Shown here piece after piece: positions 1 to 64,000 of a DNA stretch of 64,000 nucleotides. The stretch covers positions 1 to 64,000 of the forward strand of contig CM000207.1 in assembly GCA_000002445.1 (NCBI GenBank), written 5' to 3'. Every line of letters starts with the position of its first letter. The stretch's first letter is position 1. Source of the stretch: Trypanosoma brucei. Its lineage: Eukaryota. Under the pieces are notes generated by a model. It saw only the letters and a list, made by a program, of their open reading frames with translations, was not told where the DNA came from and did no database searches. Both the position numbers and the translations under genes were made by a program.

Positions 1-1600
1 ATTATAATATTCGTATATACACACTCACAACACTCTCTTATTATTATCATTATTATTATTATTATTATTATTACTGCTTATATTATAATATTCGTATACG
101 CACACTCACCATACTCTGCTATTATTATCATTATTATTATTATTATCATTATCTTTACTGCTCTTATTATATTATTAGTATATACACACACACTCACAAC
201 ACTCTCCTATTATTATCATTATTATTATTATTATCATTATCTTTACTGCTCTTATTATATTATTAGTATACGCACACTCACCATACTCTCCTATTATTAT
301 CATTATTATTATTATTATCATTATCTTTACTGCTCTTATTATATTATTAGTATATACACACACACTCACAACACTCTCCTATTATTATCATTATTATTAT
401 TATTATCATTATCTTTACTGCTCTTATTATATTATTAGTATACGCACACTCACCATACTCTCCTATTATTATTATTATTATTATTATTACTGCTATTAGT
501 ATAATATTTGTATATACACACTCACAACACACTCCTATTATTATCATCATCATTATTATTATTACTGCTCTAATTATAATATTTGTATATGCACACACTC
601 ACAACACTCTTCTATTATTATTATTATCATTACTATTATTATTACTGCTCTTATTATAATATTCGTATATACACACACTCACAACACACTCCTATTATTA
701 TCATCATCATTATTATTATTACTGCTCTTATTATAATATTCGTATATACACACACACAACACCCTCCTATCATCATCATTATTATTATTATTATTATTAT
801 TATTAGTATAATTATTACTGCTCTTATTATAATATTTGTATACACACACACTCACAACACTCTCCTATCATCATCATCATTATTATTATTATTATTATCA
901 TTATTACTATTATCACTATAATTATTATTATTACTGCTCTTATTATAATATTCGTATATACACACTCACAACACCCTCCTATCATCATCATTATTATTAT
1001 TATTATTATTATTATTAGTATAATTATTACTGCTCTTATTATAATATTTGTATACACACACACTCACAACACTCTCCTATCATCATCATCATTATTATTA
1101 TTATTATTATCATTATTACTATTATCACTATAATTATTATTAGTACTGCTCTTATTATAATATTTGTATATAAACACACTCACAACACTCTCCTATTATT
1201 ATTATTATTATTATTACTGCTATTAGTATAATATTTGTATATACACATTCTGACAACACTCTCCTATCATTATTATTATCATCATTATTATTATTATTAC
1301 TACTCTTATTATAATATTCGTATATACACACAATCACAACACTCTCCTATTATTATTATTATTATTATTATTACTGCTATTAGTATAATATTTGTATATA
1401 CACATTCTGACAACACTCTCCTATCATTATTATTATCATCATTATTATTATTATTACTACTCTTATTATAATATTCGTATATACACACAATCACAACACT
1501 CTCCTATTATCATCATTATTATTACTGCTCTTATTATAATATTCGTATATATACACACTCACAACACTTTCCTATTATTATTATTATCATTATTATTGTA
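1..1600 (-). repeat. VSG-associated 70-bp repeat array, reverse orientation, ~20 units, continues past the left window edge
   Basis: Tandem ~75-85 bp units, each with a (TAA/TTA)n tract plus the conserved core ATTATAATATTCGTATATACACACTCACAACACTCTC (reverse complement of the canonical GAGAGTGTTGTGAGTGTGTATATACGAATATTATAAT). Six-frame ORFs here are low-complexity I/Y-rich translations of the repeat. Confidence 0.9.
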
Positions 1601-1870
1601 CCACTAAATAATATCCATAAAGCTTATAAATAAAACAAAAAAATTAAATTTTAAGACTCTATCACCATTTTTCTTCACACCTATAGGTCCCTGTCATGCC
1701 AAAAATTCGTATTTTTTCGTTTCCGAAATTTTCAAAAATATGCAGAGTTTAATCTAAAAGTGTCACAATATATCGAATATTTCAGATGTGCGAAAAACTC
1801 ACAAAATAGCATCGTTACATAAAATTTATGGAATGGAGCAAAAATCCTTTAGAAATAACTCTTAAAAGTT

Positions 1871-3313
1871 TTATGCTAGAATCAAAAATGCAAGCCAAAG
1901 ATGGGCCTTGTGAATGACAATAGAATTGCTACCTGTGGTGTTTTGGGTTTCTGCTGTTCCTGTTTCTTCAACTTGAGCTATGCATTTGTCATTTTTTAAT
2001 TCGCATCCATCTTCTGTTTTGCATTTTTTTGTCATTTATCGCTTTGCATTTGTCGCTTATTTCTTTTCTCACTCCAGGACTGCTTGATGCAGTTGCTGCC
2101 GCCCTTGAGTCTATGAGCTGTTTGCCTTTCAAAAATGTTAGAACTTTTGCGGCGCCGTCGCTCCCTGCTGTTTCGAAGATCGTCTTGTCAAATGTCGTTT
2201 CTATTACTTTCAGATTGAGTGGCGCCTTCTCGATTGAATCTGTTATTTGTGCTGTGAACGGGTTTTGGTTGCTGCCGAGGTAGGTGTCTGTTATTCCCTT
2301 TTTTGACTGCGGCTCTGTTGGTGCTTTGCCACCTGGGTTTATCAGGTCCGTTAGAGCTTGCAGTGGTTTGTCGTTTGCTCTAACCGTTGCCATGATATTC
2401 GGTGTATTGGCGTATAAGTGGGTTTTTTGAGCTGAAGGATGCTGCAGAGTGCATTGCCTAGAGTATCCTTGTCGTATTCTGAGTACGGAACTGTGTCGCT
2501 GACTTTGGCGCACGCTTTTGTTACCACATTTGTGAACAGATTGACGTCAACGGTTTTGTAGGCCGTTGTTTGCTCAGTTAGTCTGGTTGCCATGGGGTTG
2601 GTCCTTTGATTTACGAAGTCGTTGCCTTGCTCTATGCATGCTCCATGTTGCGTGGCTGATGCAGTTGGTGTTGTTGTTACTGTGCCTTTACAATGTTTTG
2701 TTACTGTGAACGTTGTTGGCGGCTTTGCAAGGTCGACCAATTTGATTTTCGTGTGCTCGGTCGGTTCTATGTCCGCTGCTTTTACGCCACCGGTTTCAGA
2801 TTCAAGTGTGCAGTTCGTTGTATCTGCTGTGAAGGACGCTGTGCTTGTGCACGTTGCCATTCCTGTTACGCTGCTTAGTGATTGTCCAGACTGGGCTTCA
2901 GAGCTAGAGACGTTCGCCGTCTCCGGCTGTGTTTTGTGTAATGTCAGCATGGTGGCTTCCTGCTGCTTGATTGCTCGGAAGGCTCTTTCGTATACTTGGC
3001 TCTCCTCATTGGTTTGGCTGTCCAGCGTGTGTGGGTCTGTTTCGGTTACCGCCATTGCAAGAAAAGTTATGTGACTCGGCTTCTCTTGGCTGAAAGCGGC
3101 TTTTATTCTGTAAGCTAATGCTGCTTGTATTGCTTGCCGGCGGATCGCTATTGCAGAGGGCAGAGATTGCTCTAGTTTTCTTGCCAATTTGTGAAGGTAC
3201 TGCGCCGCGGCGCAAGCAGTTGATACTGCCTTCGTCGCCGTGTCCTCTATTTCTGCGGCTCCTACAGGCATGCTACTGACAAGTGTCATAACAAATGCGT
3301 GCCACAGGCTTTG
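1871..3313 (-). pseudogene. VSG pseudogene (a-type-like) with frameshift and lost start
   Basis: Minus ORFs 2351..3289 and 1989..2513 are in different frames. The C-terminus reads ...NTTGSNSIVIHKAHLWLAFLILA*, a GPI signal, ending at the stop at 1871-1873. Upstream of the first Met the frame stays open (QSLWHAFV-) with no signal-peptide Met. A reverse-complement 16-mer-like GTGTCACAATATATCG lies at 1760-1775. Confidence 0.75.
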
Positions 3314-4104
3314 TTACTTCATTTTTCTATGCTGTTTTGCTTTGACCAGAGACGAAGAGCTGTTTTATCGCTTGAATGGGGTCTTACTGCCTCATATGGT
3401 GTCGGTATATGAGGAAAACGGCAAATGCACACCTGTGTTTATTATGTCTGTAGCCCTTTGTGTTTTGTGTTGGTTCCTAATTTTTTAAGTTGCTACGTTT
3501 CCCAATATTGTTCTCTATTTAAATCCTTTTCCTCCTTTTATTCACTATGTCAACACATTTCACGCGGCACTATTTACCTTTATTGACATATCCTGCTGTT
3601 GGTAAAACTTGCAAGTGCTTCACGGCCATTTTGATTTGCCCCTCGTCGGCTTCAGTGCTAATAGCCTTGAAACGCCATCAGATTAAGCACAACCTCCGCA
3701 AAAATATCTTCCTTTGTACCAAAATATTTTCTAATAAAATATTTGGCGCCATCGGGTCCTTTTCATTAATAAGTATCTTCCGTCCTGTGCTTCTCAATTG
3801 TTTTACACTGTCATTTTATTCTTTATTTTTCATTTTCTTCGCCTGCTGTCGCTTTTTCTGTTAATAAAGTCCAGACCGCATTTATCTTGTATAGTGAACT
3901 CTGTTTGTCAATCATTCCCTTGTGCATAATAATGCCCACCTCTGTGTCTGTGCAGGAAAATTCGCATATTCTATCTCCTTTTCCATTTTCCTTCCTGAAT
4001 TCCTTCAATAATAATATTCCACGTACTCTCCATCTTGCTCATTGTTTCTTCTAACTCACTCGCTCTCACATAACCTTTGCTATCGTTTTAACTTCTCGCA
4101 TTTT

Positions 4105-4215
4105 TCTCTTCCACTTAGTCATTATTATCATTACTGCTCTTTTTATTACATTAGTATGCACACACTCCCAACACTTTCCCATTATCGCTGTTAATATTAC
4201 TATTACTCATAACTC
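4105..4215 (-). repeat. Single 70-bp repeat unit (reverse), upstream of the minus-strand VSG at 1871..3313
   Basis: ...attattatcattactgctctttttattacattagtatgcacacactcccaacactttccc... Confidence 0.75.
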
Positions 4216-4399: not shown

Positions 4400-5900
4400 T
4401 AAAACTGAGAAGAATTATTTTAGAATATTAGAATGCTAGAATTCAACGAAAAACTAGCACAGCAAGCACCTGAGGAACAGAAACTCTCAAATTGCGAGAA
4501 AACGATTTTTCATTTTACTTGTCAGTTTCAACTGCCGGAAAGCATCTTTCACCCTCAGGCTTTTTATCATCAAAATCACAGCCAGTTTCATCTTTCCAAG
4601 GTTTCTCTGTTGTATGCTTTTTGCATTCGTCTGCTGTTTTAGGTGGATCTGCTGGTTTGTCTGCTTTTGATGGACATGAGGAGCCAGCTTGGTGTTTCTT
4701 TTTTTCTTCCTGTTCCTTAATGAAACGGCGAACAGTGTAACATGTTGCGGCATCTGGGATTTCTTGCGGTGCTGATATTGTCTTCAGTTGTCTGTCGCCA
4801 TTTCCTCCTACAGCGGCTTTAGGTTGTGTCAGGTCGTCAAGCGACTTCTCTACTGTGTTTTTAATCTCTTCTCCATTTTTGCCAATGGATTTCTTTAGTA
4901 AGTTATCTACTTTGGTTTTAGTCTCTTGGTTTCTGTACTTTGCGTTTTCGCCGTCTATGGCTTTCGCTGTTTTTCCTTGAGAGCGCCACTTGTTATTACC
5001 GTTTTTAAGTCCAGGTTTATTGTTAGCTGGCTAAGCTCAGAGGTTACCTTTTCTAGGACTGCTATGTTTTTTTAGCTCTGCCGCAATGGTTTTGGCGCTC
5101 GGTATGGCCGTGTTGGCTGTAGATGCTGTATACTCTTCCTTTCCACAGTCTGTTTTGCGCGTTAGTTTAAGTGCTTCTTCGACGAATAGGTTGCCGTCTA
5201 CTACCGCTAGTTTTGTGGTTTGTCCGCTGATGCAGGCGTTGCTGGCTGTGTGTTTGTATGTGGCCGCCGCATGTGCGCACACCGTGAGTACTGAGGCCAC
5301 TGCGGCGTTGGTTACAGTTACCGTTTTTAAGCTGATTAATACGATTGAATTCGTTCTTGTGCTGTCTGCCGTCGGCGGTGTTACATCAATGTCTCGGGCG
5401 GTGGCATCCCGCATGCAAGCCGCGTTTTCGTTGGTTTTTGTCGTCGGTTGGATTTTCGAGTAACTTTTGTCAGAAAATCTGGTTTTTGCTGTGACAAAGT
5501 TAGAGGAATCAATGGCAGCTGTTGCTAGCTCCGCTACAGCTTCCATTTGGCCACAGAGCTTGTAAGCTGATCTCGCCGCAGCGTAGATCTTCTGACGGTG
5601 CTTATTTACTTTATTTTGTACTTCATTGACCGACTGCAGCAGTGTTTGCGCCAGAAGATTGTCGACAAGCGACGGTTGGCCGCTTGATGCTTGAGCTACT
5701 ATCTGTAGCTTAGCCGCTGTAGCAGCTTCTGCAACGCTCTGCTGTGCTCCTGTTGTTAATATGGCCAGAGCGTTGTCTGCCAGTTCCTTTAGATAATCTG
5801 CCGTATGTCATGTTTTTTTGCTGCCGCCTTCAGTGGGTGCAGAGTAGGGGGGCCGACTGCATTTCTTGCTGCGAATAGAGCTAATAGAATGTATACTCTT
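4400..5900 (-). pseudogene. VSG pseudogene with multiple frameshifts and a truncated C-terminus
   Basis: Minus ORF 5037..5546 is a VSG N-domain-like sequence. Reverse translation of 4515..4700 gives a Cys-rich C-terminal domain (CKKHTTEKPWKDETGCDFDDKKPEGERCFPAVETDK*) with no in-frame GPI signal. A signal-peptide-like VYILLALFAARNA lies near 5890 without an in-frame Met. A reverse-complement 16-mer GTGTTAAAATATGACA is at 4349-4364. Confidence 0.65.
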
Positions 5901-7189
5901 ACATGCAATCCCGGTAAAGGTACATGTGTCAACGTTACTGTTAAAGTCCGTCGGAAGTTCTGGCCGTTTCTGGTTTGCTGGTGCATCGCTACCTTCTTTT
6001 GTTTTTTGAGAGATTTATTGCTCTTCAAGGTGCCAAAAGTGGGAAATTGTACGCCATATGATAAAAGAATGTTTCTAGAAAAATAGAACTCAGTTGAGCT
6101 AAAATTGTCCACTTTAAAAAAAACTTTATAATTGTACATCTATATCTCAAACAGTTAAGATTTGTTTTTTTTGCTTCTAATGCACCCCAACTTCTTTTGT
6201 GCTTCTGCAACTGAAATGAAGATATAACGCTGGCTTTTCTGCCTCACACGTTGATATTTTCATTTTTTACAATAATACTGGCTTACTTTAGACCTCTTTC
6301 TTTTTTTTCTTGGAAATTAATATACTGGTTTCAAAGTTTTTCCTGAAGTTTCTTGATGCTTTCCGTCACTGCCGCGTCAGTGCGTATTCTTCTGGGAATT
6401 AACTGTTTCCTGAAATCCCTTAATGTGTGGCAAGTTTAGCAATACGAAATGGGAAGAGTATCATTACAATTTTTTTGTAATTTATAGACACCATCTATCG
6501 CATCATATACGTTGAATTTCAAGCCTTTTTTTCCTTTTGATTCTCCTTTCGCTGTTAAAACTAGTATATTAGAGTTCTTAGTTTTAAATTCTCATCCACA
6601 TAATATAATATTGTTGCCGAAAAATGTTACTAAATTTTAGTGTATTTGTTAAGAAGAGGCTTTTGACATTATATAAACTTACCCAGTCCATCACCATCTT
6701 TTACCCTTTACAGCTAGACATTATGATCGGTAATCAGAGTAAAAACAATAGTCACCACAATCTCTGGTGTAGTATCTATCTTTTTTTAAAGAAACGCAGT
6801 GCATCATCGACAACTCCTCTTCCTTCTAAAGTATTGTTTCCCCCGGTGTTGTGATATCCGTATCGTCTTGTTTTTTTTTCATATTTTCTTCCTTTTCAAT
6901 TAGTTTTCTATCGATGCTTCTGTGGGAAACGTAGCAAAACTATTTTTCTTGTGTGATAGACTCTGTCACTCCACAATTGTCCACTTAATAACATCCTTGT
7001 ATGATAATATATTTCATCCTATTTGTGTTTAAAAATGCATATATTCCATCTCTCTCCTTTTTCTTTAATAAAAATTCTTTATGCTCTCCGATTACTACTC
7101 CAATTCACTCACTTATTAGAATTGCACCCTTGTTATTAATTAAGTGTCTCTCTTTAGTGGTTTCGGCTAACCCACTACACATCTATTAT

Positions 7190-7262
7190 AATATTAGTGT
7201 AAACAATCTCATAATACTCTCCAATAACTATCATTATTATTACTATTATAACCCTGACTGAT
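7190..7262 (-). repeat. Single 70-bp repeat unit (reverse)
   Basis: TTA-rich tract plus ...ctcataatactctccaataactatcattattattactattataa... Confidence 0.65.
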
Positions 7263-7470: not shown

Positions 7471-8922
7471 TTATAGAATCAAAAATGCGAGCAAAAGAGG
7501 CTCCTTGTTAATGAAAAAAGAATTTCTTCCTGTGGTTTTCGTGGTTTTTCCATCTTCTTTTGCTGCCTCTTTCTTTTTTGGTTTGTAATCCGGATATACT
7601 ACACATTTTTTATTTGGTCCGTCACCGTCCCGTTTACAGCCATCTTTGCAAGTATATCCTGCTACTTTGGCCCCGCACTTTCCATCTGTTTGTCATGTTT
7701 TTTTTTTCTTTTCTTGTCATACCCGAGCTGCCGCAAGCCGGAGTGCTATGCCCTTGAAATAGCTGCTTTCCAGGGCTAGGTCAGCGCCTGTTGCTATGCT
7801 GTCTAGAGTTCCTTCCAAATCTTGAGTTCCTTTTTTGTATTTTGCCTGCTTGGTGTAGAGGCCGGTGGTATATCGCTCTCTGAAGGCTGTAGCATCGTCG
7901 TAAGTACTTTTGATGTGTTGTCTGATTTGCTCGGCTTCTTTGTCTTCTGATTGTGTACCTGCCGGGATTTCAATTGTTAGAAGTTGGGCTGCAATGTACA
8001 AAAAGTCGGTGTCACCGATTAAGGTGTCTATTGTTGTCCTTTCTAGGCCGATCGTTGGAGGTGCTTCTGCCTTTTTTGCTTTGCACAGCAGTGATGTTAA
8101 CTTTGCTGCCGACGGGATTTTTTTTTGTGGATCTTCTGTCTGGGCCTCCCAGCTCTGGTTCAGTCGTTAAGCTTTTTTTGTTTGTAATAGCTCGCCTCCA
8201 TATGTTGTGCCAGCCGATTCTGCTACCATCGAAATGCTGCTGAGCGTTGTCTCTGTGGTAGATGTCGTTTGGCATCTGCCGCTGTTGTCTGTGTCGAGGG
8301 CCGTTGAAAGCGTGAGTTCCAGGTCGTAGCTGCTCAGTTCGACGTCTATCTCCGGTTAAGTAGCTGCCTTTACCTTGGTTGCCCGGATTGCCGAGATTTC
8401 CTGCCATTCTAGCGGTGGGTTGCTTACTGTTGTTGGGTCGCATTTGTGTTCGACGTGCTTGTTCCACGTCTTTGTAGCTTTTCATTTGGTGTTTGTTGCT
8501 TGTCTGTCGTTTTGTGAGATTGTTATCGACGTATAAGACTGTGCCCGCCCTTGGAGATAACTTATGCACTGGAGAATTCCTTCTCTGACGCCGGTTAGTG
8601 TTTTCTTGTAGGTCGATCCTTTGGCTTTGGTTTTGTCTATTTTTAGCCGGCCAAGAAAAGCCAGTGCCGAGTAGGCATTTTGTTCTGTCGGCGTTGTTGC
8701 TTTTGCTGCTTTAAGTTGCCATATGTGCATCAGCTTGTCTGCTTGCTCGACATCGGTGTCGGTTATCGAAATTATGGACTTGAAATCCTCTGCTACTTTA
8801 TGCAGATATTTGGTCTCGTTGCAGAGAGAGGTTATGGCACTTTCGGCTTCGCTTTCGGCCGTTGCGTTTTGTATCTTTAGCATAGACAGAGTTAACACCA
8901 GTACATGCTATTGGTTGTTGGG
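7471..8922 (-). pseudogene. VSG pseudogene with an in-frame stop in the signal peptide and internal frameshifts
   Basis: Reverse translation of 7471..7700 gives ...CKDGCKRDGDGPNKKC...TTGRNSFFINKEPLLLAFLIL*, an intact GPI signal ending at the stop at 7471-7473. The N-terminus reads MVQPNNQ*HVLVLTLSMLKIQNATAESEAESAITSLC. Minus ORFs 7717..8001 and 8482..8898 are in different frames. Confidence 0.75.
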
Positions 8923-45399: not shown

Positions 45400-45480
45400 A
45401 AGTAGGGCTATAATAGCAATAGTCATAATAATTATTAGATGAGAGTGTTGTGAGTGTATATGCACCAATATTATAAGGTG
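45400..45480 (+). repeat. 70-bp repeat, forward, single
   Basis: ...aattattagatgagagtgttgtgagtgtatatgcaccaatattataag... Confidence 0.75.
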
Positions 45481-48318: not shown

Positions 48319-48810
48319 AAGAGTGGCCGTCTTGAGTGGCAGGAGGTTTGCTTCCAGCAGAGAGTCCTCTTTGCGCGTCCCATGCGGTATGCCGGCTATG
48401 ATGCGACTGGCCTTGTGTTGTGCTGCTGCAAGGAGGTCGCGACTTCGTTTCGAAGCGTCTCAGTACCATACCTCACTGCCATACATGGTGTGTGCCTCTA
48501 CGAGTGCTAGATAAAAAGCTCTCAGTACTTGTCGTCTTGGCCCCCATGTAGAAGTTGAGATGGCTGCTATCTGCAGTAGTCGAAAGTCCATCTTGCGTCT
48601 CGTTTCGGCCGCATGTGTTGCCATCCCTTGCAGACACTGGAATGTTACTCCTAGAAGCTTCGGTGTCCTGTCAGCTCCTATTCTTTCGCCGTTCAGTTGT
48701 AATGTAAGGGAGTGGCGCTCTATACACCCGAAGAGTGTGCACTTTGTTTTCGCTACGTTGACATACATGAAGTACTCTTTTGACCACTGTAACACCACGT
48801 TTAGGCCGCA

Positions 48811-50001
48811 TTACAGCGTGTGGTTAATGACATCCCTCTCTGTGTGCCTCGCAAGTAGCGTCAGGTCGTCTGCAAAGAATCCGTGCTGCAGCAACGGCAC
48901 TTCTGCAAGGAACTGGCTCAACGAGTTCATGACAATAATGAACATGATTGGGCCAAGGACAGTTCCTTGTGGCACTCCTCGCTCAAATGTTCTGCTTCTA
49001 GAAAGCTTCTCCTTGAATCTCACTCTGCCAGTTCGGTTACTCAGAAATGATACGCACCACTTCACAATGTGGGGTGATACCTTCATTCTGTGCAATTCTC
49101 TCACAATTTTGTCGTGTTCTACTGTATCGAATGCCTTCTCGTAGTCGACGAATACAGCACCCGTACGAGATTGGTGCGTGGGACGGCAGAGGGAAGCGCG
49201 GACGTGCAGGAGTTGTTCCAGCGTTGAGCATCCGGGGCGAAAGCCTGATTGCTGCGGCGTCAGCTGGGACTCAACAGTGTCTCTAAGTCTCGCGGCAATT
49301 ATGCGTTCCATGAATTTGCAGAGACAGCTCGTGAGCGTCACAGGCCTGTAAGAATCGAGGTCCTCCGCCTTTTTTCCGGCCTTCAGGATGGGGATGATAA
49401 CACCGGTCTTCCATGTAGGCGGCACGACTCCCGTTCGTAGGTTCTCATTGAATAGCATCAGAACAACATTCAGCGCTGCTCTACCGAGATGTTGCAGTGC
49501 CTCGTTGTATAAGCAATCAGGTCCGGCTGCGGATCCACTCGGTAGCAGTTTGATCGATCTCCGTAGTTCAGCCATCGTGATGGGACTGAACTCACTCGCT
49601 ATTGTCTTTATGGGTGCCTGTGGGTGTGAGTCGATGTGCCTTCTTTCTCGGGACGAGTACAGTTTACTGAACCTCTCAGCTTGACGGTAGTCCGTGATGG
49701 CCACGTAATCAACAAGTACAGCCGGTGTGGTTAGTGGTCGTGGCGCATATACCTTCTTGACAATGTGCCAACTGCAGCGGTCTGACACCGCAAGTCTGGA
49801 GCATAGCGTGCTCCATCTCTTCTTTGTGGTACGGTCCAGGATCTGCTTACGCGTGACTACCAACTTTTCCCTTCGGTGGGATGTTCCGCATCCAGCGATC
49901 TCTTCATCGAGTTTCGCGAGCTCGGGTGTCCAATGTGGTGGCGTTGCTCTGCAGCCACGGGGGACGGAGGCCTTCGTCGCAATGAGGATGGCGGAGCTCA
50001 A
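48811..50001 (-). pseudogene. ingi copy 2 ORF segment: reverse transcriptase
   Basis: ...PQGTVLGPIMFIIVMNSLSQFLAEVPLLQHGFFADDLTLLARH... Confidence 0.75.
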
Positions 50002-50079
50002 TTTCTGTTCCAGGGTGTTGACGTTCTTCTCTCTACCAATTTTCCTGCAGAGCTCGTCAACCTTGAGACGGAAATTACT

Positions 50080-51058
50080 CTAGTCAGCTTTTAGCCATGC
50101 GTACATGGGCTTTCGAAGCCGCGGGCAACTCAGTGCATCTGTGTCCTCTCCAACGATAACGTCGAAAAATATGTGATGGTGATCGCTATCGGAAGAATAC
50201 AGCGATGTCCACGTGTACACTGTACAATTCCTTGACAGTGTCACATCAGGGGTGGACTCCCCATGGTGGCGCGCGTACCTGGTGCACTCACCAGTGTTGC
50301 AAACCAGAAACTGGTTGTCAATGCACCACTGTGTGAGGGTTTCACCCTTGGTATTTGTTGGGCTCGCGCGATCCCATGCCAACGCGTGTGCGTTAGCGTC
50401 TGCACCGATGAGCTGGGCACCGACAGTTGTCAGAAGCGTATCTAGGTCAGTTGCCGTGAAGATATATTTTGGTGGGATGTATGCCGACGTGACAGTCAGC
50501 GCCGTTGCACGTGTAAGGTGAATTGTTGCATGCACTTGTTCAATGCGACCAATAACGGCCATACCGGTATCGACTGGTAGGTCCTCCCTCACTAGTATTG
50601 ATACACCACCTCCTTTGCAGTTACGAGCTATTCCGTGATGTTGGTAGCCAGCAACGCTAAAGCAAGCCGCCTCTCCAGGCGTCATCCTTGTCTCGCTCAA
50701 CAGACAAAAGGCGATCCGCTCATCAACAAGGGTTTTGTGGAGTGCTAATCTCTTTCCTTGAGATAGCCCGGCGCAGTTCCACTGCATCCCGCGCAACGAC
50801 GGGCCGGGATTCTCTTCCACATCACCGGACATCAGAATCTTGGTGCGGATGATACTGCTGATGGCACGCTGGCAAATGCCCATGGACTGACAAATGAAAA
50901 ACGGTGTCCCAGCAAGACGCTGCTGATCCCTGTGCTGTATTATGCCGTAGCAGGAGCGAAGCATTGTTCCCCATGAAAGGAACGCTGCTGGCTCTTGGCT
51001 TCCCCCGATGATACGGGGCACTGGACCCTGGCACCACGTTGAGGTGGCTGGCATCGCC
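50080..51058 (-). pseudogene. ingi copy 2 ORF segment: endonuclease-like N-terminal region with 2A-like peptide
   Basis: ...MPATSTWCQGPVPRIIGG...RTKILMSGDVEENPGPSLRGMQWNCAGLSQGKRLALHKTLVDERIAF... The called ORF starts in flanking DNA (MRSFFAIFVVLFTQA). Confidence 0.7.
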
Positions 51059-52252: not shown

Positions 52253-53779
52253 ATGATCTATATAGTGCTCCTAGCGCTCTTTGCGTTACCCAAGGCAGTA
52301 TCTCCAGCTGCCAACCAAAACGCAGCTGAGTACAGAGCTTTATGCGATTTAATAGCGCTCAAGGAGTCCATTTCGACGTTAACTGAACCAACAGCCGACA
52401 CTGCAGTTACAGACATCGTTAACGACATCGAAATGCTGAACATATCAACGGCCACAGACAGTTTCATAGCGGACAGAGATGGCGAACTTAAAGAGACAGA
52501 ATCGGGAGTCAAAAAAAGCGAAAAAGAGGCATGGCAGGAAAAGATAAAAAAGCTCGATCAAGAGACAGGAGAACCCAAAACTGTCAAATACAAAAGACTA
52601 AAAGACAAAACGACGCGTGGGCCAGCAAACCAAAACATCAACAAGTTGCTGCAACGGGCTCAGCAGCTGAAAATTGCTTACGAACAACAGATCTCAGAGG
52701 CGAAATCAAAAAAAACAGCGATTACAACATCAATTAAAAACGCTATTTACGGAAAAGGACAGGAAGACTTCCAAGAAAAAGCACTTGACACCAACGACGC
52801 AAAAAACAACTGCGGAAAAGCGGCAGGCAGCGAAAACGTCGGTCAAAGCCTAAGCAACGACCTGGTGTGCCTTTGCATACCGGACCAAGGCGCGAACGGA
52901 AACGACTTGTGCGAACACGGGCTGCAACCAACAGCGGTAGCCGTAGCAAACCGAGGCAGCCAAACCACACCACAGTACACCACCATGGTCAACGGCTGCA
53001 AACTGCAGCATCGGAAAAGACAACTGACGCCATATTTAATAATCCAACGCCTCGCAGCGTTTGACAGCCTTTTGGGCAGACAAGCGCAAACAGCGACCAC
53101 AGCAGCGGCGACAAGAACACTTGGCAAACCACACAGCGATGGAAACTGCGACAACAGCGCAACCCAGGGCATGTGCGTCAACTATAAGCAGCAAATAGAA
53201 ACAGCAACCACAGGCATCCCATGGGTAGCACAACTAACCCAAGCCGCCCATGATTTAACAGCAATGAACAAAGCAACAGAACATGCGGCAGCCATCAAGA
53301 CACAACTGGAGAGCATTCAAGCGAGTGCTTGGGCTGTCTACGCAGCGGCGGTAAACACCGAGCTCAACCAACGGCACCCAAAGCAAAACGAACAACCGAT
53401 ACAAGCAACAACAGTCAACGACAACAAGTGCAAGCCAACAAACGCAACTCCTGCCGAATGCCCAAGCGACCATTGCGTTTATGACGATAAAGCAACAGAT
53501 GGTAACAAATGCAAACCTAAACCAGGAACAGAAACCACAGCAGCAGCAGGAACAGGAGAGACACCAAAAGAGGGAGCAGCTGCAACTGGGTGTGTAGCAC
53601 ACAAAGATAAAACCACTTGTGAAAATGACAAAACAGGCGACAAGCAAAATTGTGCATGGAGAAGGGGAAAAGATAGTGAGCCTGACCGAGAAAAAGAAAT
53701 GTGCCTTGATTCCAGTTCTCTTGTCAATAAGAAGTTGGATCTGATGGCTGCTGCTTTTGTGAGCTTGGTAAAATTTTAG
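52253..53779 (+). CDS. VSG: Variant surface glycoprotein, apparently intact (508 aa, a-type)
   Basis: MIYIVLLALFALPKAVSPAANQNAAEYRALCDLIAL... A complete C-terminal domain ...CENDKTGDKQNCAWRRGKDSEPDREKEMCLDSSSLVNKKLDLMAAAFVSLVKF*. The signal peptide is short, so the start codon is uncertain. Confidence 0.8.
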   Translation: MIYIVLLALFALPKAVSPAANQNAAEYRALCDLIALKESISTLTEPTADTAVTDIVNDIEMLNISTATDSFIADRDGELKETESGVKKSEKEAWQEKIKKLDQETGEPKTVKYKRLKDKTTRGPANQNINKLLQRAQQLKIAYEQQISEAKSKKTAITTSIKNAIYGKGQEDFQEKALDTNDAKNNCGKAAGSENVGQSLSNDLVCLCIPDQGANGNDLCEHGLQPTAVAVANRGSQTTPQYTTMVNGCKLQHRKRQLTPYLIIQRLAAFDSLLGRQAQTATTAAATRTLGKPHSDGNCDNSATQGMCVNYKQQIETATTGIPWVAQLTQAAHDLTAMNKATEHAAAIKTQLESIQASAWAVYAAAVNTELNQRHPKQNEQPIQATTVNDNKCKPTNATPAECPSDHCVYDDKATDGNKCKPKPGTETTAAAGTGETPKEGAAATGCVAHKDKTTCENDKTGDKQNCAWRRGKDSEPDREKEMCLDSSSLVNKKLDLMAAAFVSLVKF

Positions 53780-54019: not shown

Positions 54020-54125
54020 TAGTTATGGTTTTATAAATAATAAAGATGGTAATAATAACAATAATAATAATGATACTAAGAGAGTTTTGTGAGTGTGTAT
54101 ATACTAATATTATAATAAGAATGAT
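54020..54125 (+). repeat. 70-bp repeat(s), forward
   Basis: ...aataataatgatactaagagagttttgtgagtgtgtatatactaatattataat... Confidence 0.8.
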
Positions 54126-56787: not shown

Positions 56788-58024
56788 ACCAAAACAGCGA
56801 TAGTTTCTGATAACGCGGCAGTAGAAATACGGCTTTTGGCAGCGGCGACAACGACCGACAACCCAAACCCCTTTCAGCTGGGACCGGCAGCGGCAGTGGC
56901 ACTAAAAATTGTCTCAGAGGACACCGGAAAGCTGAAGGAAGCAACGCCAACGATATTGTCAGCAATCAAACGCCTCAGCCGCCTGCAAGAGTATTACGCC
57001 ACAGCAAACAGGCTAACAAGAGATGATATAACAGTCAAACTAGCCGGAGGCTACAGCGGCACCTCGTTTCAAAACGGGCCGATAACCAAGGCAACGATCA
57101 CAGAGCACAAACCGAGCAGCTGCCGCGAGGACGCAGCTGAAGATGAAAAAACAAAGGCAGCCTTACAACTAGAACAGAAAATGAACTTCAAGAAAATCGA
57201 CATCGGGGCCAACGTGTACCATGCATGCGCCGACAACATAGACTCGACGCCATGCAACGGAAACTCAGAAACCAGCTACATTTGTACAAAAATAGAAATC
57301 GGCAAAACGCTGCAGACCACCGCGGACGCCAACCTCGGAACCGACGGACATTACAAAAAATCTGGCTTCGGCCCACTACTAACGCAGCTACTCACCCCGG
57401 ACGACGTATACAATAAAATGACTGACGTCATTGCGGAAGTAGAGAAACTACGCAGTATCTCCTCATTAAAGGACGCCAAACTCTTCTCAGATTACCCGAC
57501 CGTGACGGCATTCATAGAAAGGCAAGTGATCGGGGTACCCATCGGACAGTCACCGACACCCCAACAGGCCACAGCCATAGCGGAGCAAATAAAAACTGCC
57601 TACGGCACAAGCAGCCGACTTCTAACAGAAAATATGGAAAACAACACAAGAAACAACAACCACATTCAACGCCCCAAAAGAAGCGGTGAGCAAAAAAATT
57701 GAACAAATTAACTCCGACTCAGACCTTATATCGGTTATTGCAATAAATTTAGCGAAAAGCGGAAAAGAAACTAAAACAGCGTGTCCTACGTTATCCATAC
57801 AAGACAAACAAGTAGGGAAAGAATGCAGTGGAGAAACCGAGAAAGATAAATGTAACGACAAAGAAGGATGCAAATATAACGATAAAGAAAAGAAATGCGA
57901 AGAAGATCCTGCAAAAACTACAGCAGCAGAAGCCAAAGATTCCAAAACAACAAACACCACAGGAAGCAATTCTTTTGTCATTCATAAGACTCCTTTTTTG
58001 ATTGCACTTTTCCTAATAGGATAA
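56788..58024 (+). pseudogene. VSG pseudogene lacking an N-terminal signal; C-terminal domain in a shifted frame with an intact GPI signal
   Basis: ORF 56836..57702 is an N-domain with only a TTG start. ORF 57686..58024 gives ...CSGETEKDKCNDKEGCKYNDKEKKCEED...NTTGSNSFVIHKTPFLIALFLIG*. 16-mer TGGTATATTTTAAAAC at 58105. Confidence 0.7.
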
Positions 58025-58264: not shown

Positions 58265-58380
58265 TGGATATTAGTTATATTAATTACAGTATTATCAATA
58301 ATCATAATAATAATGGTGATGATAAGAAAGTGTTGTGAGTGCTTAAATGCGAATATTATAATAAAAGTGGTCGTAGAGAG
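58265..58380 (+). repeat. 70-bp repeat, forward
   Basis: ...ataataataatggtgatgataagaaagtgttgtgagtgcttaaatgcgaatattataat... Confidence 0.75.
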
Positions 58381-59972: not shown

Positions 59973-61372
59973 ATGAAGAAAATGAAATTACTGGCTTTGA
60001 TCGCGCTTCTCACACTAGGGACACAAACCCGATATACAGCAGGTAACAAGAAAGCCATGAAAGTCAGTGCCTTCAAAGCTCTGTGCGACATAAGCGGTGA
60101 GCTGAAAAAAGATGCGGCTATAGCCGGCGAAGCTCTAGCAAACCTACTGTCTCAAGCCCAAAAGAACAGAGATATCTCAGTTGACCTGCACATACTAGGT
60201 AGACAAAACGAAACAGCAGAGCTTGCTGCAGCGGCCGCCATAGCATTCATGGCCGACAGGAAAGCCGACAAGATAACTAGCCAGGTCAAGAAAATGGCCT
60301 CAAAAGCCACCCACGCGGCGGCGACGACCGCATATCTAAGCGGCTTTATAGACCAAACCACAAGCATTTTCGATCAAGCCGCCGGAAGCACCGACCACTG
60401 CATCGCACAAGAAAACGGAAACAGGAACACAAACTACGGCGAATTAGCCGGGTGCTTAACAGAAAGCAAAAGTCACCCGGCAATACCCACATCAACAGCA
60501 GGCGAGCCCGACCTCGACGCGAAGATCAAAGCTGTAGCTCAGCTCAACAACCAAGACAAAAGCAGCGGAACTAACGTTTGCTTGCTGACGTCGACGCAAA
60601 GCGGCCCCACTGGATACGGCGGGACAACAAACCAACCGAACAACAGTCGAACGGGTTGGCGGCATCATGTCGTTCGGCAACGCAGCACTAGCAACCAGCG
60701 CCTTCCCGAAAACAGCATCAACCATCGGCGAAACCCCATTAATCAAAGCGGCTACGACAGCGGTAGACAACGCAGAAACTCCAGCAGAATGCCTAGACGC
60801 CGAAGCGGTCATCCTCAACAAAATAGCAGAGACAACGGCCAGACAAACGTTCACAGACTTTGACACAACGGAGCAGCGCGTAGGACAAAGCGAAAAAACA
60901 ACGCAACACAAAATAAAAGGGATAGACTTGACAAACCTAGCAGCGAAGCTGAAAGGCTACCAAGACAGTCAAGGTGGCGAGGCAAAGATTCAAAAGAAAC
61001 GAAAAGAATACCAAAAAACGTACTCCAGACAACTTAACGAGGTTACAGTACACTGCCAGACAATGGAATGCGAGGTGCGTACCACAAATAAAGCAGAAGA
61101 AAGCGAGTGCAATTCAGCAGGAGACGACGCAAGAAAATGTATGACACTAGAAAAAAAGGGTGCACTTTTAACAAAAAAACAAAAAAATGTGAGTTGAAAA
61201 AGGATGCGAAAGCTGAACTAGAAAAAGAAAGCCAAGAAACAGGAGGGAATGATGAGAAAACTAAATCGAAGTGGACATGTAAAGAGCAAAAAGAGTGCAC
61301 AAAAAGTTGCAAATGAGAAAATAATGCTTGCAAGGATTCTAGTTTTCTCGTCCATAATAAATTCGCCTGATG
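59973..61372 (+). pseudogene. VSG pseudogene with at least two frameshifts and a premature stop in the GPI signal
   Basis: ORFs 59973..60863 (signal MKKMKLLALIALLTLGTQTRYTAGNKKAMKVSAFKALCDI), 60667..61197 and 61107..61316. The C-terminus ...KGCTFNKKTKKCELKKDAKAELEKESQETGGNDEKT...ENNACKDSSFLVHNKFA* is cut by TGA where paralogs have LMAA. Confidence 0.75.
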
Positions 61373-61699: not shown

Positions 61700-61770
61700 G
61701 CAATTTTTAAACAGTAACGGCAAGGATAATGATATGTTGTAACTGTGTATATACTAATATTATAAGAGTG
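61700..61770 (+). repeat. 70-bp repeat, forward, single
   Basis: ...gataatgatatgttgtaactgtgtatatactaatattataag... Confidence 0.7.
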
Positions 61771-62661
61771 GTTGTATGGAACACCTAGAACCCAAAAATC
61801 AAATCACTTAAAACAATAGAATGTGTACAATGAAAGTATACGAGGGTGTAAGAGATAACACGAGGAATATTATTAGGAGAAACATAAAAAAAAGAGAAGG
61901 GGAAGGAATATCCACAGTTTAATGCACACGTATTACTATGAGAGCCGTAGTTACACACAAAAAATGACGATGGAGGGGAAAGTTAAAGAGACACAGTGTT
62001 CAGTATATAAGGCATATGAAATCGCTATGTCATTCGCAGAAGCAAAGATCGAATACAAAAAAAAGGGAAATAAATGCAGAACGAATCAACTGAAGATGTG
62101 GAACGGAAGCGCACTGCAGAGGAAAATAGCACCTTAGGATGTGGAGCAACCGATGATTAACTGTACTGCACTCCAAAAGGATTGATGAAGCATATGAGAT
62201 GATAGCATCGGTGAGTTTTGATATTCGTGGTTGATGCATACGTTAAGCACAAAGACTGAAATGATAGAAAACCGTAGGGTGGCCGTCGTTTTTAAGGAAA
62301 AAGAACAATAGAAGGCCACAGCAGGGATGGTTTACTGAATTTTCACAGGGTTATGCCCCGGATGTTCTGTTTCAGCGGCATGTAAAAACAGCAAATAGAG
62401 AAGGGCCGGTGACAAAAGCAAAAATAACCGTTGAATTGCCAATAATACGATGAACCACGACCAAGTGCTTTATTGACAATGTGTGCAAGTCAAGAAAATG
62501 CGCACTACTAAAGACACCGAGGGACTCGCAGTGGCAATTATTGGTCTCCGCAGTTCTTCTTGCCAGCTAATGTGCAAATTCACTGTTACCTGCCCTATTA
62601 TTAATACTGAAGAGGAAAGAGACCACGTTTTTCAATAGAGGTAGATTATTAAAGACGCGGA

Positions 62662-63966
62662 ATGATGAATCAGCTGACTCTACCTGTTTTAGCAGCAGCT
62701 TTAGTCTTTCTTGGAGCTTCAAGCCGAGTGTATGGAGCAGCTGGCGACGGAGCGAACGGCGCAGACTTTCACGTGTTGTGCAACCTAGTCAATCTAGCAA
62801 AGACGCCAGTTGACACAGTAATTCCACAACTAAACCTAGACGAGAAGGCACTTGACGATATAAGGGAGATTTGGGTAGCACTAGCCGACCCCAAGTACAC
62901 AAACTCATTACCAAACAAGTTAGGGGCAGAGGGAGCGGCAACGGCTGAAACCGCCTGCCAAACATCCCCAAAAGCCGCCAAATGCAAATCAAACTGGACA
63001 AAATGGCAGGCTGCAAAGCAAAGAACTGCAACAGCTGGAGAACAAGCTAAGCATAAACCATTAAGTGACGAACTACGAAATTCAGTGTGGGGGAAACAAG
63101 CAGCCGAAGCAGTTACTCATCTGGAGGCACTAGCGGCAAAAGACTTAAACGACTACACTAGCAGCCTCAAAAGCCAGATCGACACCATGCGAGCGACACT
63201 CAAATCACAGCTAACAGATGCTCTCTATGGAAATGGCCAAATTTCGTTTGAGGGAGCGGAGGGAGCCACGCGGACAGTCGGTGCCAACAGAGCAGCAGGA
63301 TGCAAAGGTGCAAACGTGGGAAAAAGCCTGGTAGGCGACCTCTTTTGCCTCTGTGCAGTAGACAGCAGCCAGAACTCGGCGAGACACTGCGGCTTTCTAA
63401 CAGACAGCTGCAGCAGCGGGCTTTGGAGGGCCTGTACCGGCAACAATGCTAAAACAGCATGGCAAAAGATCAGCGCCGAGTGCGAGCATTTCTCAAAGCT
63501 GGAGTTCGGAGCACAATCACTCACCCTAGAATTAGCGGCTTTTAGCGGGCGGCTCAGAAGCGATGCAACAGCAAGCGGGCCAGCAGAAGCCGCAGTTTTC
63601 CTAGGGAAATCCAATACTCAAAGCTGCGCCACCGGAGGCAATACGGCGAGATGCATCGACTACAGCGACGCATTCAAAGAAGGTGGCCAACGTCAAAAGA
63701 TCAGCTTGTACGACAAGCTTGCAGCAGCGGCCACAACCATAGCGACGATAACAGAGAAGCAAGCAGAAGTTCAAACAAAGCAATACGCTATAAATCAACT
63801 TGCACAGGAAGCGGAGAGGATTTATCTCTCACTTTCCACGCTAAACATCAAAGACATAGAAGTTCATCCTCAACCACCTCCCGCCCTAGCAGCCGCATTG
63901 AACAACCAAAAGGAAAAATGTTTTCAGTACCACAACAAGTCGAAGGAATGCACAGATAATGGATGA
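62662..63966 (+). CDS. VSG: VSG, N-domain intact, C-terminal region incomplete (in-frame stop at 63964; C-terminus not resolved within this window)
   Basis: Signal MMNQLTLPVLAAALVFLGASSRVYGAAGDGANGADFHVLCNLVNLAK, then a 434-aa open frame ending ...KEKCFQYHNKSKECTDNG*, about 34 bp before the window edge, with no GPI signal yet seen. Confidence 0.65.
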   Translation: MMNQLTLPVLAAALVFLGASSRVYGAAGDGANGADFHVLCNLVNLAKTPVDTVIPQLNLDEKALDDIREIWVALADPKYTNSLPNKLGAEGAATAETACQTSPKAAKCKSNWTKWQAAKQRTATAGEQAKHKPLSDELRNSVWGKQAAEAVTHLEALAAKDLNDYTSSLKSQIDTMRATLKSQLTDALYGNGQISFEGAEGATRTVGANRAAGCKGANVGKSLVGDLFCLCAVDSSQNSARHCGFLTDSCSSGLWRACTGNNAKTAWQKISAECEHFSKLEFGAQSLTLELAAFSGRLRSDATASGPAEAAVFLGKSNTQSCATGGNTARCIDYSDAFKEGGQRQKISLYDKLAAAATTIATITEKQAEVQTKQYAINQLAQEAERIYLSLSTLNIKDIEVHPQPPPALAAALNNQKEKCFQYHNKSKECTDNG

Positions 63967-64000
63967 AAATCGATTGGAGACAGCGAAAACAAGAGAGAGC

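What the first reader, a model, noticed from the sequence alone, without database searches (positions are those of the whole stretch)
1..64000. Divergent switch of VSG cassette orientation, centred on an ingi retrotransposon
All VSG genes and pseudogenes in 1..13.8 kb are on the minus strand, with reverse-oriented 70-bp repeats at their upstream side. All those from 21.2 kb onward are on the plus strand with forward 70-bp repeats. The switch point (13.8-21.2 kb) is occupied by the RIME fragment plus ingi copy 1. The last plus-strand VSG body starts directly at the ingi 5' end with no 70-bp repeat of its own. In the known organisation of T. brucei subtelomeric VSG arrays, orientation switches usually mark inversion or recombination breakpoints. 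Here the breakpoint coincides with a retroelement.
Basis: partly seen in the sequence, partly recalled or inferred. Interest (0 to 1): 0.55.

Follow-up and report, generated by a model that had tools for sequence, protein, structure and literature searches.

The report
VSG array flip at ingi retrotransposon
In this published stretch of the Trypanosoma brucei TREU927 genome, two blocks of silent surface-antigen (VSG) genes point away from each other, and the join lies at a retrotransposon that most likely served as the recombination site; this is a clear example of a known kind of rearrangement, not a new one.

Summary
Four VSG genes or pseudogenes and 21 70-bp repeat units in 1-13.8 kb are on the minus strand. 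At least eleven VSGs and every 70-bp repeat from 21.1 kb onward are on the plus strand. No call on either side contradicts this. Between the two blocks lie 1.85 kb of unassigned DNA, a 216-nt ingi 5' unit and a full-length ingi (15864-21116, minus strand).

The ingi is not a simple insertion:
- Its 3' end carries the 12-bp target duplication ATCAAGTGAGTA, but its 5' end abuts codon ~57 of a plus-strand VSG pseudogene.
- The first ~56 codons of that pseudogene are nowhere in the window.
- A homologous cassette in T. b. equiperdum (86.5% identical over 1.9 kb) has the same VSG interrupted at the same site by only a 213-216-nt ingi 5' unit with its own 12-bp duplication. Its VSG 5' part, upstream region and 70-bp repeats are intact and co-oriented.

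The window's arrangement is therefore derived. Most likely, ectopic homologous recombination through ingi 5' sequence joined two array segments of opposite polarity. I could not tell inversion from translocation or break-induced copying, and I could not exclude a mis-join inside the ingi repeat in the assembly. The region is already annotated, and ingi-mediated rearrangement is known. Interest is modest.

The parts
1..1598 (-). Run of 19 70-bp repeat units, cut by the window edge. It lies upstream of a minus-strand VSG that would sit to the left of the window.
   Evidence: TRF, core matches, nhmmer
1874..3322 (-). VSG pseudogene, frameshifted. N-terminal domain, C-terminal domain and GPI signal are all present.
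   Evidence: 72% identical to VSG 1562, E 3.7e-125; tblastn map; frame reading
4120..4205 (-). 70-bp repeat upstream of the 1874-3322 VSG
   Evidence: nhmmer E 9e-12
4518..5807 (-). VSG pseudogene
   Evidence: phmmer against PDB: VSG MITat 1.21 E 5.6e-48, VSG 545 E 1.7e-42
7184..7248 (-). 70-bp repeat upstream of the 4518-5807 VSG
   Evidence: nhmmer E 9e-7
7474..8907 (-). VSG pseudogene in several frames. It has no upstream 70-bp repeat.
   Evidence: PDB: VSGsur E 2.4e-14, MITat 1.2 C-terminal domain E 1.3e-8
12308..13771 (-). Intact VSG (A-type), = EAN76223.1 / XP_803371.1, annotated 'VSG, atypical'. It has no upstream 70-bp repeat.
   Evidence: Pfam PF00913 E 1e-104; 100% identity; no repeat found
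13772..15623 (.). Unassigned DNA between the last minus-strand VSG and the retroelements. It is not similar to VSG, ingi or 70-bp repeats, and matches nothing else in the window.
15624..15635 (-). 12-bp direct repeat ATCAAGTGAGTA, copy 2, downstream of the 216-nt unit
   Evidence: exact match; this sequence occurs only twice in the window
15636..15851 (-). 216-nt unit equal to the first 216 nt of ingi/RIME. It has no RIME 3' half and no poly(A), and is bounded by the 12-bp repeat.
   Evidence: 94% identical to the ingi 1 5' end
15852..15863 (-). 12-bp direct repeat ATCAAGTGAGTA, copy 1, between the ingi 1 poly(A) and the 216-nt unit
15864..21116 (-). ingi 1: full-length non-LTR retrotransposon with an 11-A tail. 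No target-site duplication links its two ends.
   Evidence: 97.5% identical to ingi 2 over 5237 nt; RVT_1, endonuclease, RNase H and zinc-finger domains; ends read
21117..21128 (+). CTTTGAAACGGA, the surviving copy of the old target duplication of the element inserted in the VSG. T. b. equiperdum has CTTCGAAACGGA / CCTCGAAACGGA on both sides of its unit.
21118..22449 (+). VSG pseudogene that starts at about codon 57, flush with the ingi 1 5' end. It is in a single frame with 4 in-frame stops.
   Evidence: aligns from residue 57 of the 471-aa VSG P0022, E 3e-56; equals residues 55-499 of the reconstructed T. b. equiperdum VSG; C-terminal domain matches ILTat 1.24, E 2.6e-6; HMMER hits
22671..22776 (+). 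First plus-strand 70-bp repeat
   Evidence: nhmmer
24885..26384 (+). Intact VSG (B-type), = EAN76224.1
   Evidence: Pfam VSG_B E 1e-55 plus C-terminal domain
27311..27618 (+). Remnant of a VSG C-terminal domain, followed by the 3' UTR 16-mer
   Evidence: tblastn; 16-mer
27777..27911 (+). 70-bp repeats
30291..31826 (+). VSG (B-type) open reading frame
   Evidence: Pfam VSG_B E 2e-64
32059..32360 (+). 70-bp repeats, 4 units
33581..34777 (+). VSG pseudogene (B-type)
   Evidence: Pfam; tblastn
35043..35111 (+). 70-bp repeat
36580..38185 (+). VSG pseudogene (A-type)
   Evidence: Pfam; tblastn
38472..38601 (+). 70-bp repeats
41602..41893 (+). VSG C-terminal / 3' homology from a degenerate pseudogene
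43485..45038 (+). VSG (B-type) open reading frame
   Evidence: Pfam
45417..45485 (+). 70-bp repeat
45820..51058 (-). ingi 2, antisense within a plus-strand cassette. It has no clear target-site duplication, and there is no strand switch here.
52253..53779 (+). Intact VSG (B-type), = EAN76225.1
   Evidence: Pfam
54054..54120 (+). 70-bp repeat
56836..58021 (+). VSG pseudogene
   Evidence: C-terminal-domain tblastn hits
58299..58371 (+). 70-bp repeat
59973..61367 (+). VSG pseudogene (A-type)
   Evidence: Pfam
61713..61768 (+). 70-bp repeat
62662..63966 (+). VSG (B-type) open reading frame
   Evidence: Pfam

Best explanation
The divergent switch is the scar of an ectopic homologous recombination that used ingi sequence as the homology.

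**Step 1 (shown).** A plus-strand VSG cassette already carried, at codon ~57, an antisense insertion of an ingi 5'-end unit flanked by the 12-bp duplication TCCGTTTC(A/G)AAG. A homologous cassette in T. b. equiperdum still has this state, with the VSG 5' part, the upstream region and 70-bp repeats all co-oriented.

**Step 2 (inferred from the 12-bp repeats).** Elsewhere, a full-length ingi and a 216-nt unit had inserted in tandem at the target ATCAAGTGAGTA, next to a block of VSGs of the opposite polarity.

**Step 3 (inferred).** Recombination joined the two contexts. It took place between the unit in the VSG and the 5' end of that full-length ingi, with the exchange point within roughly the first 50 nt of the element.

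**Result.** ingi 1 keeps the VSG-side 5' junction of one element and the 3' junction of another. The VSG lost its first ~56 codons, its upstream region and its 70-bp repeat. Minus-strand and plus-strand VSG blocks now diverge from the element.

The event could have been an intrachromosomal inversion, a reciprocal exchange between subtelomeres, or one-sided copying (break-induced replication or gene conversion). The data do not decide between these.
For: **The flanks of ingi 1 do not match.**
- ATCAAGTGAGTA follows its poly(A) and recurs after the 216-nt unit. It occurs exactly twice in the window, against 0.29 expected.
- The 5' flank is TTCCGTTTCAAAG, with no second copy at an ingi 3' end.
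- PMC3820030 states that Tbingi/TbRIME have 12-bp target duplications and that tandem elements separated by one duplication are common. On that basis a third ATCAAGTGAGTA copy would be expected at the ingi 1 5' end, and it is missing.

**The VSG is cut at the junction.**
- Its frame runs right up to the junction and starts at residue ~57 of full-length homologues.
- The missing N-terminus is nowhere in the window.

**A collinear homologue exists in T. b. equiperdum (L002).**
- L002 9561-11493 matches window 20900-22834 at 86.5%.
- In L002 a 213-216-nt unit sits at the same site, flanked by CCTCGAAACGGA / CTTCGAAACGGA.
- Removing the unit and one duplication copy restores a 499-codon VSG frame from Met1, with the same in-frame stop as the window copy.
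- All VSGs and 70-bp repeats in L002 are on the plus strand.

**The exchange point appears to lie near the 5' end of ingi 1.**
- Within its first 216 nt, ingi 1 has 1 private change against 9 in the T. b. equiperdum unit.
- It differs from that unit at four shared-polymorphism sites and shares only the C at nt 4.
- So all but the extreme 5' end looks foreign and young.

**ingi 1 shows no internal scar.** It is full-length and collinear with ingi 2.

Against: - The T. b. equiperdum cassette is only 86.5% identical. It is a paralogue, not the orthologous position, so it shows the ancestral cassette structure and not the history of this exact locus.
- No reciprocal product or partner element was found. 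No T. brucei genome could be searched by DNA with these tools.
- ingi 2, which sits inside a co-oriented cassette, also lacks a clear target duplication. A missing duplication alone is therefore weak evidence.
- The exchange-point inference rests on a handful of sites.
- A mis-join inside the 5.2-kb repeat in the Sanger-era assembly would look the same.
Confidence: 0.6

Rival explanations
1. Assembly artefact. The two blocks are real but not adjacent. The TREU927 assembly joined them wrongly inside the 5.2-kb ingi repeat, which single Sanger reads cannot span.
For: - ingi copies are 97.5% identical over 5.2 kb.
- Discordant flanks are what a join between two different ingi loci would produce.
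- Subtelomeric assemblies are described as difficult (PMC2854126; PMC6784898).
Against: - The VSG/ingi 5' junction itself is real and old, because it is shared with an independent T. b. equiperdum assembly.
- The three annotated intact VSGs are consecutive in the public record, although that is the same assembly.
- There is no positive sign of misassembly.
Confidence: 0.13
2. Retrotransposition-coupled joining. ingi 1 inserted by target-primed reverse transcription at ATCAAGTGAGTA. Its cDNA 5' end was then captured by a different DNA end (the old ingi-like unit in the VSG). One insertion event thus deleted or rearranged the DNA in between, as described for L1 insertions in mammals (from my own knowledge).
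For: - The poly(A) lies directly on the ATCAAGTGAGTA site.
- The element is full-length.
- The 216-nt unit in the VSG would offer homology for annealing.
Against: - This route has not been described for ingi in the papers I could read.
- It needs a coincident break at the VSG unit.
- The outcome cannot be told apart from ordinary homologous recombination using sequence alone.
Confidence: 0.12
3. Bystander insertion. A divergent switch already existed, and the ingi simply landed in it. The retroelement played no part in creating the switch.
For: - ingi elements are frequent in these arrays. A second copy sits in a co-oriented cassette with no switch.
- That second copy also lacks a clean target duplication.
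Against: - A simple insertion would leave the VSG 5' part and a matching 12-bp duplication on the other side, as in T. b. equiperdum. Neither is present in the window.
- The left flank carries a different duplication.
Confidence: 0.07
4. Intrachromosomal inversion specifically. Recombination between two inverted ingi copies on the same chromosome flipped the left block. This is a sub-case of the best explanation.
For: The evidence is the same as for the best explanation. An inversion would turn a uniformly plus-strand array into the observed minus/plus pattern.
Against: - Both ingi copies in the window are in the same orientation.
- There are no inverted repeats of 200 nt or more other than 70-bp repeats and VSG 3' ends.
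- The partner would have to lie beyond the left edge of the window.
- The long 70-bp repeat run at the left edge fits a telomere-directed block acquired from another chromosome end at least as well.
Confidence: 0.2

Closest known systems
ingi/RIME-mediated genome rearrangement in T. brucei, as stated in the T. b. gambiense genome paper (PMC2854126)
   Same: - A full-length ingi sits at a break in collinearity.
- The flanks do not belong together.
- A related genome keeps the collinear state.
   Different: - The case here lies inside a silent VSG array and changes cassette polarity.
- The homology used appears to be a 216-nt 5'-only unit and not two full elements.
- The type of event (inversion, exchange or copying) is unresolved.
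Tandem ingi/RIME arrangements separated by a single 12-bp target-site duplication (Bringaud and colleagues; summarised in PMC3820030)
   Same: The order ingi 1 - ATCAAGTGAGTA - short ingi-derived unit - ATCAAGTGAGTA is this architecture.
   Different: - The short partner lacks the RIME 3' half and poly(A).
- The expected third copy of the duplication, upstream of the ingi, is replaced by a truncated VSG.
VSG cassette organisation of subtelomeric arrays (70-bp repeat, upstream region, VSG, conserved 3' 16-mer), as in the TREU927 genome description
   Same: Both blocks consist of such cassettes, mostly pseudogenes, each with 1-4 repeat units.
   Different: - Two minus-strand VSGs and the truncated plus-strand VSG have no upstream 70-bp repeat.
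- A 19-unit repeat run lies at the window edge.
NARTc of T. cruzi, a 0.25-kb non-autonomous element derived from L1Tc by a 3' deletion (PMC2323293)
   Same: The 213-216-nt units keep only the 5' end of the autonomous element and are flanked by 12-bp duplications.
   Different: - They have no poly(A) or A-rich tail.
- Only two copies were seen here.
- Mobility is inferred, not shown.

Membership tests
Subtelomeric VSG array cassette | VSG N-terminal and C-terminal domain homology on one strand | tested here: met
   Pfam, PDB, HMMER and tblastn hits. All are minus-strand left of 13.8 kb and plus-strand right of 21.1 kb.
Subtelomeric VSG array cassette | 70-bp repeat(s) upstream of each VSG, in the same orientation | tested here: inconclusive
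   Present for most cassettes. Absent for VSGs 7474-8907, 12308-13771 and 21118-22449.
Subtelomeric VSG array cassette | Conserved 16-mer in the 3' UTR | tested here: met
   Six matches with at most 2 mismatches against 0.06 expected. Their strands agree with the VSG calls.
ingi (autonomous non-LTR retrotransposon, ingi clade) | Element of about 5.25 kb with endonuclease, reverse transcriptase, RNase H and C2H2 zinc-finger coding capacity | tested here: met
   ingi 1 is 5253 nt. It hits PF14529, PF00078, PF00075 and PF13894 and is 97.5% identical to ingi 2.
ingi (autonomous non-LTR retrotransposon, ingi clade) | Conserved 5' signature and 3' poly(A) | tested here: met
   A shared 5' end CCC(C/T)GGCGATGCC... 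is seen in four copies. The tails have 11 A and 7 A.
ingi (autonomous non-LTR retrotransposon, ingi clade) | 12-bp target-site duplication on both sides (mark of an undisturbed insertion) | tested here: not met
   ingi 1 has TTCCGTTTCAAAG at its 5' side and ATCAAGTGAGTA at its 3' side. ingi 2 has no convincing duplication.
RIME (0.5-kb non-autonomous partner of ingi) | 5' end of ingi joined to the 3' end of ingi, plus poly(A) | tested here: not met
   The unit at 15636-15851 has only nt 1-216. It has no 3' half and no A tail.
RIME (0.5-kb non-autonomous partner of ingi) | 12-bp target-site duplication | tested here: met
   ATCAAGTGAGTA lies on both sides, 12 of 12 matching.
Hybrid retroelement at an ectopic-recombination junction | Intact element whose two flanks carry different target duplications | tested here: met
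Hybrid retroelement at an ectopic-recombination junction | An unrearranged homologous locus with collinear flanks exists | tested here: met
   T. b. equiperdum L002. It is a paralogue at 86.5% identity, not the orthologous site.
Hybrid retroelement at an ectopic-recombination junction | Reciprocal product or donor locus identified | not testable with these tools
   No T. brucei genome can be searched by DNA. Exact-protein look-ups for TREU927 genes and junction ORFs found nothing.
Inversion between inverted repeats | Partner element in inverted orientation with the reciprocal flanks | tested here: not met
   Not present within the window. Both ingi copies are minus-strand, and there are no long inverted repeats. 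Beyond the window this cannot be tested.
Pol II divergent strand-switch region (transcription start region) | Boundary of two transcribed polycistronic units carrying start-site chromatin marks | not testable with these tools
   Both sides are silent VSG (pseudo)gene cassettes. No chromatin or RNA data were available. No RNA genes were found.

The most novel reading that the evidence does not exclude
T. brucei-group genomes carry a discrete 213-216-nt ingi 5'-only unit. It resembles NARTc but has no poly(A). It inserts with a 12-bp target duplication, and its copies inside VSG cassettes act as landing pads for recombination with full-length ingi elements. Such recombination would flip or exchange whole segments of the silent VSG archive.
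Probability: 0.2. Interest if true: 0.5.

Novelty: new member of a known kind. Interest (0 to 1): 0.3.

Why it matters
The silent VSG archive is the raw material of antigenic variation, and how its arrays are reshuffled is still known mostly in outline. This locus is a readable example. A retroelement remnant inside a VSG pseudogene appears to have supplied the homology that joined two array segments of opposite polarity, and one cassette lost its 5' end and its 70-bp repeat in the process.

It adds a documented case to the known role of ingi/RIME in rearrangement. It does not change how the system is understood. The region is already in the public TREU927 annotation.

Tried and rejected
- **Six-frame Pfam scan of 1.6-12.3 kb, and Pfam on single ORFs.** These missed three of the four minus-strand VSGs. 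PDB, HMMER and word-based searches were needed instead.
- **Exact-protein look-ups.** TREU927 VSGs, the chromosome-6 paralogue and junction-spanning ORFs were not on record, so no TREU927 or other-strain synteny could be obtained that way.
- **Locus L001, fetched through the 52-aa cluster member P0010.** It is unrelated DNA and was discarded.
- **Search for degenerate ingi remnants in the unassigned regions.** None were found.
- **Test for chimerism of ingi 1 against ingi 2.** Divergence is uniform except at the 5' end. One search shows that most of that excess comes from changes private to ingi 2 (seven of the twelve differences).
- **Palindromic or inverted duplication around the switch.** Rejected, because no inverted repeats exist beyond 70-bp repeats and VSG 3' ends.
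- **Rfam and tRNA scans.** Nothing was found.
- **Literature on the usual orientation of VSG arrays and on ingi at array strand switches.** No explicit statement was found. The TREU927 genome paper and the VSG-archive paper are not held.

Full report
**Identity of the window**

The window comes from the Trypanosoma brucei brucei TREU927 reference genome.
- The ORF at 12308-13771 (minus strand) is 100% identical to EAN76223.1 / XP_803371.1, annotated 'VSG, atypical'.
- The ORFs at 24885-26384 and 52253-53779 (plus strand) are identical to EAN76224.1 and EAN76225.1.
- All three lie on one 3,057,547-bp NCBI record and have consecutive protein numbers. The region is therefore already public and annotated, and these are successive intact genes across the switch.

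**Checking the observation**

Strand calls rest on four independent kinds of evidence, and all four agree.

1. *VSG protein homology.*
   - On the minus strand: 1874-3322 (72% identical to VSG 1562, E 3.7e-125), 4518-5807 (PDB VSG MITat 1.21, E 5.6e-48), 7474-8907 (VSGsur, E 2.4e-14) and 12308-13771 (Pfam PF00913, E 1e-104).
   - On the plus strand: 21118-22449, eight ORFs with Pfam VSG domains from 24.9 to 64 kb, and C-terminal-domain remnants at 27.3, 41.6 and 57.8 kb.
   - A tblastn run with 20 VSG proteins found no hit on the opposite strand in either block.
2. *70-bp repeats.* A profile built from the window's own units finds 19 units at 1-1598, plus 4120-4205 and 7184-7248, all on the minus strand. 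It finds nine loci from 22671 to 61768, all on the plus strand. It finds nothing between 7248 and 22671. The 16-nt core gives 26 matches against 0.05 expected.
3. *The conserved 3' UTR 16-mer.* Its strand follows the same pattern.
4. *AT skew.* It changes sign at about 21 kb, and reverts only over the antisense ingi 2.

- Only two of the four minus-strand VSGs have an upstream repeat.
- The long repeat run at the left edge belongs to a gene outside the window.
- 13772-15623 is unassigned DNA, not retroelement.
- The 'RIME fragment' is not a RIME.

**Anatomy of the switch**

Reading the minus strand from right to left, the order is:
1. the plus-strand VSG pseudogene, here seen antisense;
2. ingi 1 (21116 down to 15864; 5253 nt; 11-A tail);
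3. ATCAAGTGAGTA;
4. a 216-nt copy of the ingi 5' end (15851-15636);
5. ATCAAGTGAGTA again;
6. 1.85 kb of unassigned DNA;
7. the intact minus-strand VSG.

ingi 1 is collinear with ingi 2 over 5237 nt at 97.5% identity. It encodes endonuclease, reverse transcriptase, RNase H and zinc-finger domains.

The literature held here says that Tbingi/TbRIME make 12-bp target duplications. It also says that tandem elements separated by a single duplication are frequent, because the same target is re-used (PMC3820030). Under that rule a third ATCAAGTGAGTA should precede the ingi 1 5' end. Instead the flank there is TTCCGTTTCAAAG.

This flank is coding sequence of the plus-strand VSG.
- The VSG frame runs up to the junction.
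- It aligns from residue 57 of full-length VSG homologues (E 3e-56).
- The first ~56 codons, the upstream region and the 70-bp repeat of this cassette are nowhere in the window.

**A comparison locus**

The HMMER search with the longest stop-free stretch of the truncated VSG returned a T. b. equiperdum protein, P0021. The contig that encodes it could be fetched as L002, which is CM010675.1:2224293-2245408.

L002 9561-11493 matches window 20900-22834 at 86.5% over 1940 nt. The match runs from the ingi 5' end, across the junction and through the VSG, to the next 70-bp repeat. In L002:
- The element is only 213-216 nt long and sits at the same site in the same orientation.
- It is flanked by CCTCGAAACGGA and CTTCGAAACGGA. 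The window retains CTTTGAAACGGA on the VSG side.
- Deleting the unit and one duplication copy restores a 499-codon VSG frame from Met1. That frame aligns end to end with full-length VSGs and carries the same in-frame stop as the window copy.
- The upstream region, a 70-bp repeat pair at 7892-8058, and all other VSGs and repeats in the 21-kb locus are on the plus strand.

The insertion and the stop codon therefore predate the divergence of the two cassettes. The collinear, co-oriented state is ancestral, and the window's state is derived.

At 86.5% identity L002 is a paralogous cassette, not the orthologous position. It shows what the cassette looked like, not the history of this exact site.

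**Where the exchange happened**

Four copies of the first 216 nt of the element were compared.
- ingi 1 has one private change, against nine in the T. b. equiperdum unit.
- ingi 1 differs from that unit at four sites that are polymorphic among the copies.
- The two share only the unusual C at nt 4.

If the ingi 1 5' end had descended along with the flanking VSG, which is 13.5% diverged, it should carry many more private changes. Apart from its first few nucleotides, the element next to the VSG therefore looks young and foreign. This places the exchange point near the extreme 5' end. The inference rests on few sites.

**Most likely mechanism**

I favour ectopic homologous recombination between the old ingi 5' unit inside the VSG and the 5' end of a full-length ingi that had inserted, in tandem with another 216-nt unit, at ATCAAGTGAGTA next to a VSG block of opposite polarity.
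- Shown: the discordant flanks, the truncation, the ancestral collinear structure, and the intact hybrid element.
- Inferred: the partner locus and the type of event.

An inversion would need an inverted partner beyond the left edge of the window. Both ingi copies in the window are minus-strand, and there are no long inverted repeats. A reciprocal exchange, or one-sided copying from another chromosome end, fits equally well.

Two further observations fit a telomere-directed block joined to an array that points away from the telomere, though this is only suggestive.
- The 19-unit repeat run at the left edge is far longer than the 1-4 units seen elsewhere here and in L002.
- The T. b. equiperdum array points away from the nearer contig end.

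**Rival explanations**

- *Mis-join inside the ingi repeat in the Sanger-era assembly.* This would mimic everything except the VSG/ingi junction itself, which is independently confirmed. I give it about 0.13.
- *Retrotransposition-coupled joining.* A cDNA 5' end captured by the old unit cannot be separated from ordinary recombination by sequence alone. About 0.12.
- *Bystander insertion into a pre-existing switch.* The missing VSG 5' part and the different duplications argue against it. About 0.07.

**Comparison with what is known, and novelty**

The T. b. gambiense genome paper states that ingi and RIME sequences recombine and cause rearrangements (PMC2854126). Tandem ingi/short-element arrangements and 12-bp duplications are textbook features of this clade (PMC3820030, PMC2323293). 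This locus is a well-resolved new instance of a known kind of event, inside an already annotated region.

The less expected by-product is the 216-nt 5'-only unit, seen twice with different 12-bp duplications and the same 3' boundary. It recalls T. cruzi NARTc but lacks an A tail. I could not census it genome-wide.

**Limits**

- No T. brucei genome could be searched by DNA.
- Most exact-protein look-ups failed.
- Key papers on array organisation were not available.

Noticed in passing
window 15636-15851 (with 12-bp repeats at 15624-15635 and 15852-15863); L002 9565-9777 (with repeats at 9553-9564 and 9778-9789): Two independent 213-216-nt copies of the ingi 5' end have the same 3' boundary (...CAGCAGTATCATCC) and no poly(A). 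Each is flanked by its own 12-bp direct repeat (12/12 and 11/12 matching). They look like a discrete 5'-only mini-element, similar to NARTc but without an A tail. Target-primed reverse transcription from a poly(A) RNA does not explain them.
   Followed up: partly
window 1-1598: A run of at least 19 70-bp repeat units on the minus strand is cut by the window edge. This is far longer than the 1-4 units at every other cassette here and in the T. b. equiperdum locus. Such runs are typical of telomere-proximal or expression-site VSGs (from my own knowledge), so the left edge may be close to a chromosome end or an assembly gap.
   Followed up: partly
window 8908-12307: About 3.4 kb between two minus-strand VSGs has relatively high G+C and near-zero AT skew at 9-11 kb. 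It has no 70-bp repeat, no VSG, ingi or Pfam similarity in any frame, and no match elsewhere in the window. Its origin is unknown.
   Followed up: partly
window 12308-13771: This intact 'atypical' VSG has no upstream 70-bp repeat. Even so, database entries named only 'variant surface glycoprotein, T. brucei' (for example AGQ49803.1, 528 aa) are 95-97% identical over residues 1-462 and then switch to a different C-terminal domain. A 90-94% paralogue lies on a 1.6-Mb TREU927 record. This suggests mosaic or segmental use of this gene family.
   Followed up: no
window 45820-51058: ingi 2 sits antisense between a 70-bp repeat and the upstream region of VSG 52253. Its first four bases are replaced (CTCA instead of CCCT) and it has no convincing target duplication. 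The 8-mer TATCTTTG lies about 13-16 nt outside each end, which may be chance.
   Followed up: partly
window 27311-27618: An orphan VSG C-terminal-domain remnant with its own 3' UTR 16-mer lies between VSG 24885-26384 and the next 70-bp repeat. This cassette therefore has two successive VSG 3' ends.
   Followed up: no
window 2351-3289, 21214-21747, 56836-57702: Several clear VSG N-terminal domains get no hit from the Pfam VSG models (PF00913, PF13206), even though they have 60-75% identical VSG homologues. Pfam-only annotation would miss them.
   Followed up: yes
L002 (T. b. equiperdum CM010675.1:2224293-2245408): All VSGs and 70-bp repeats in this 21-kb stretch point away from the nearer contig end, which is about 120 kb away.
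   Followed up: no
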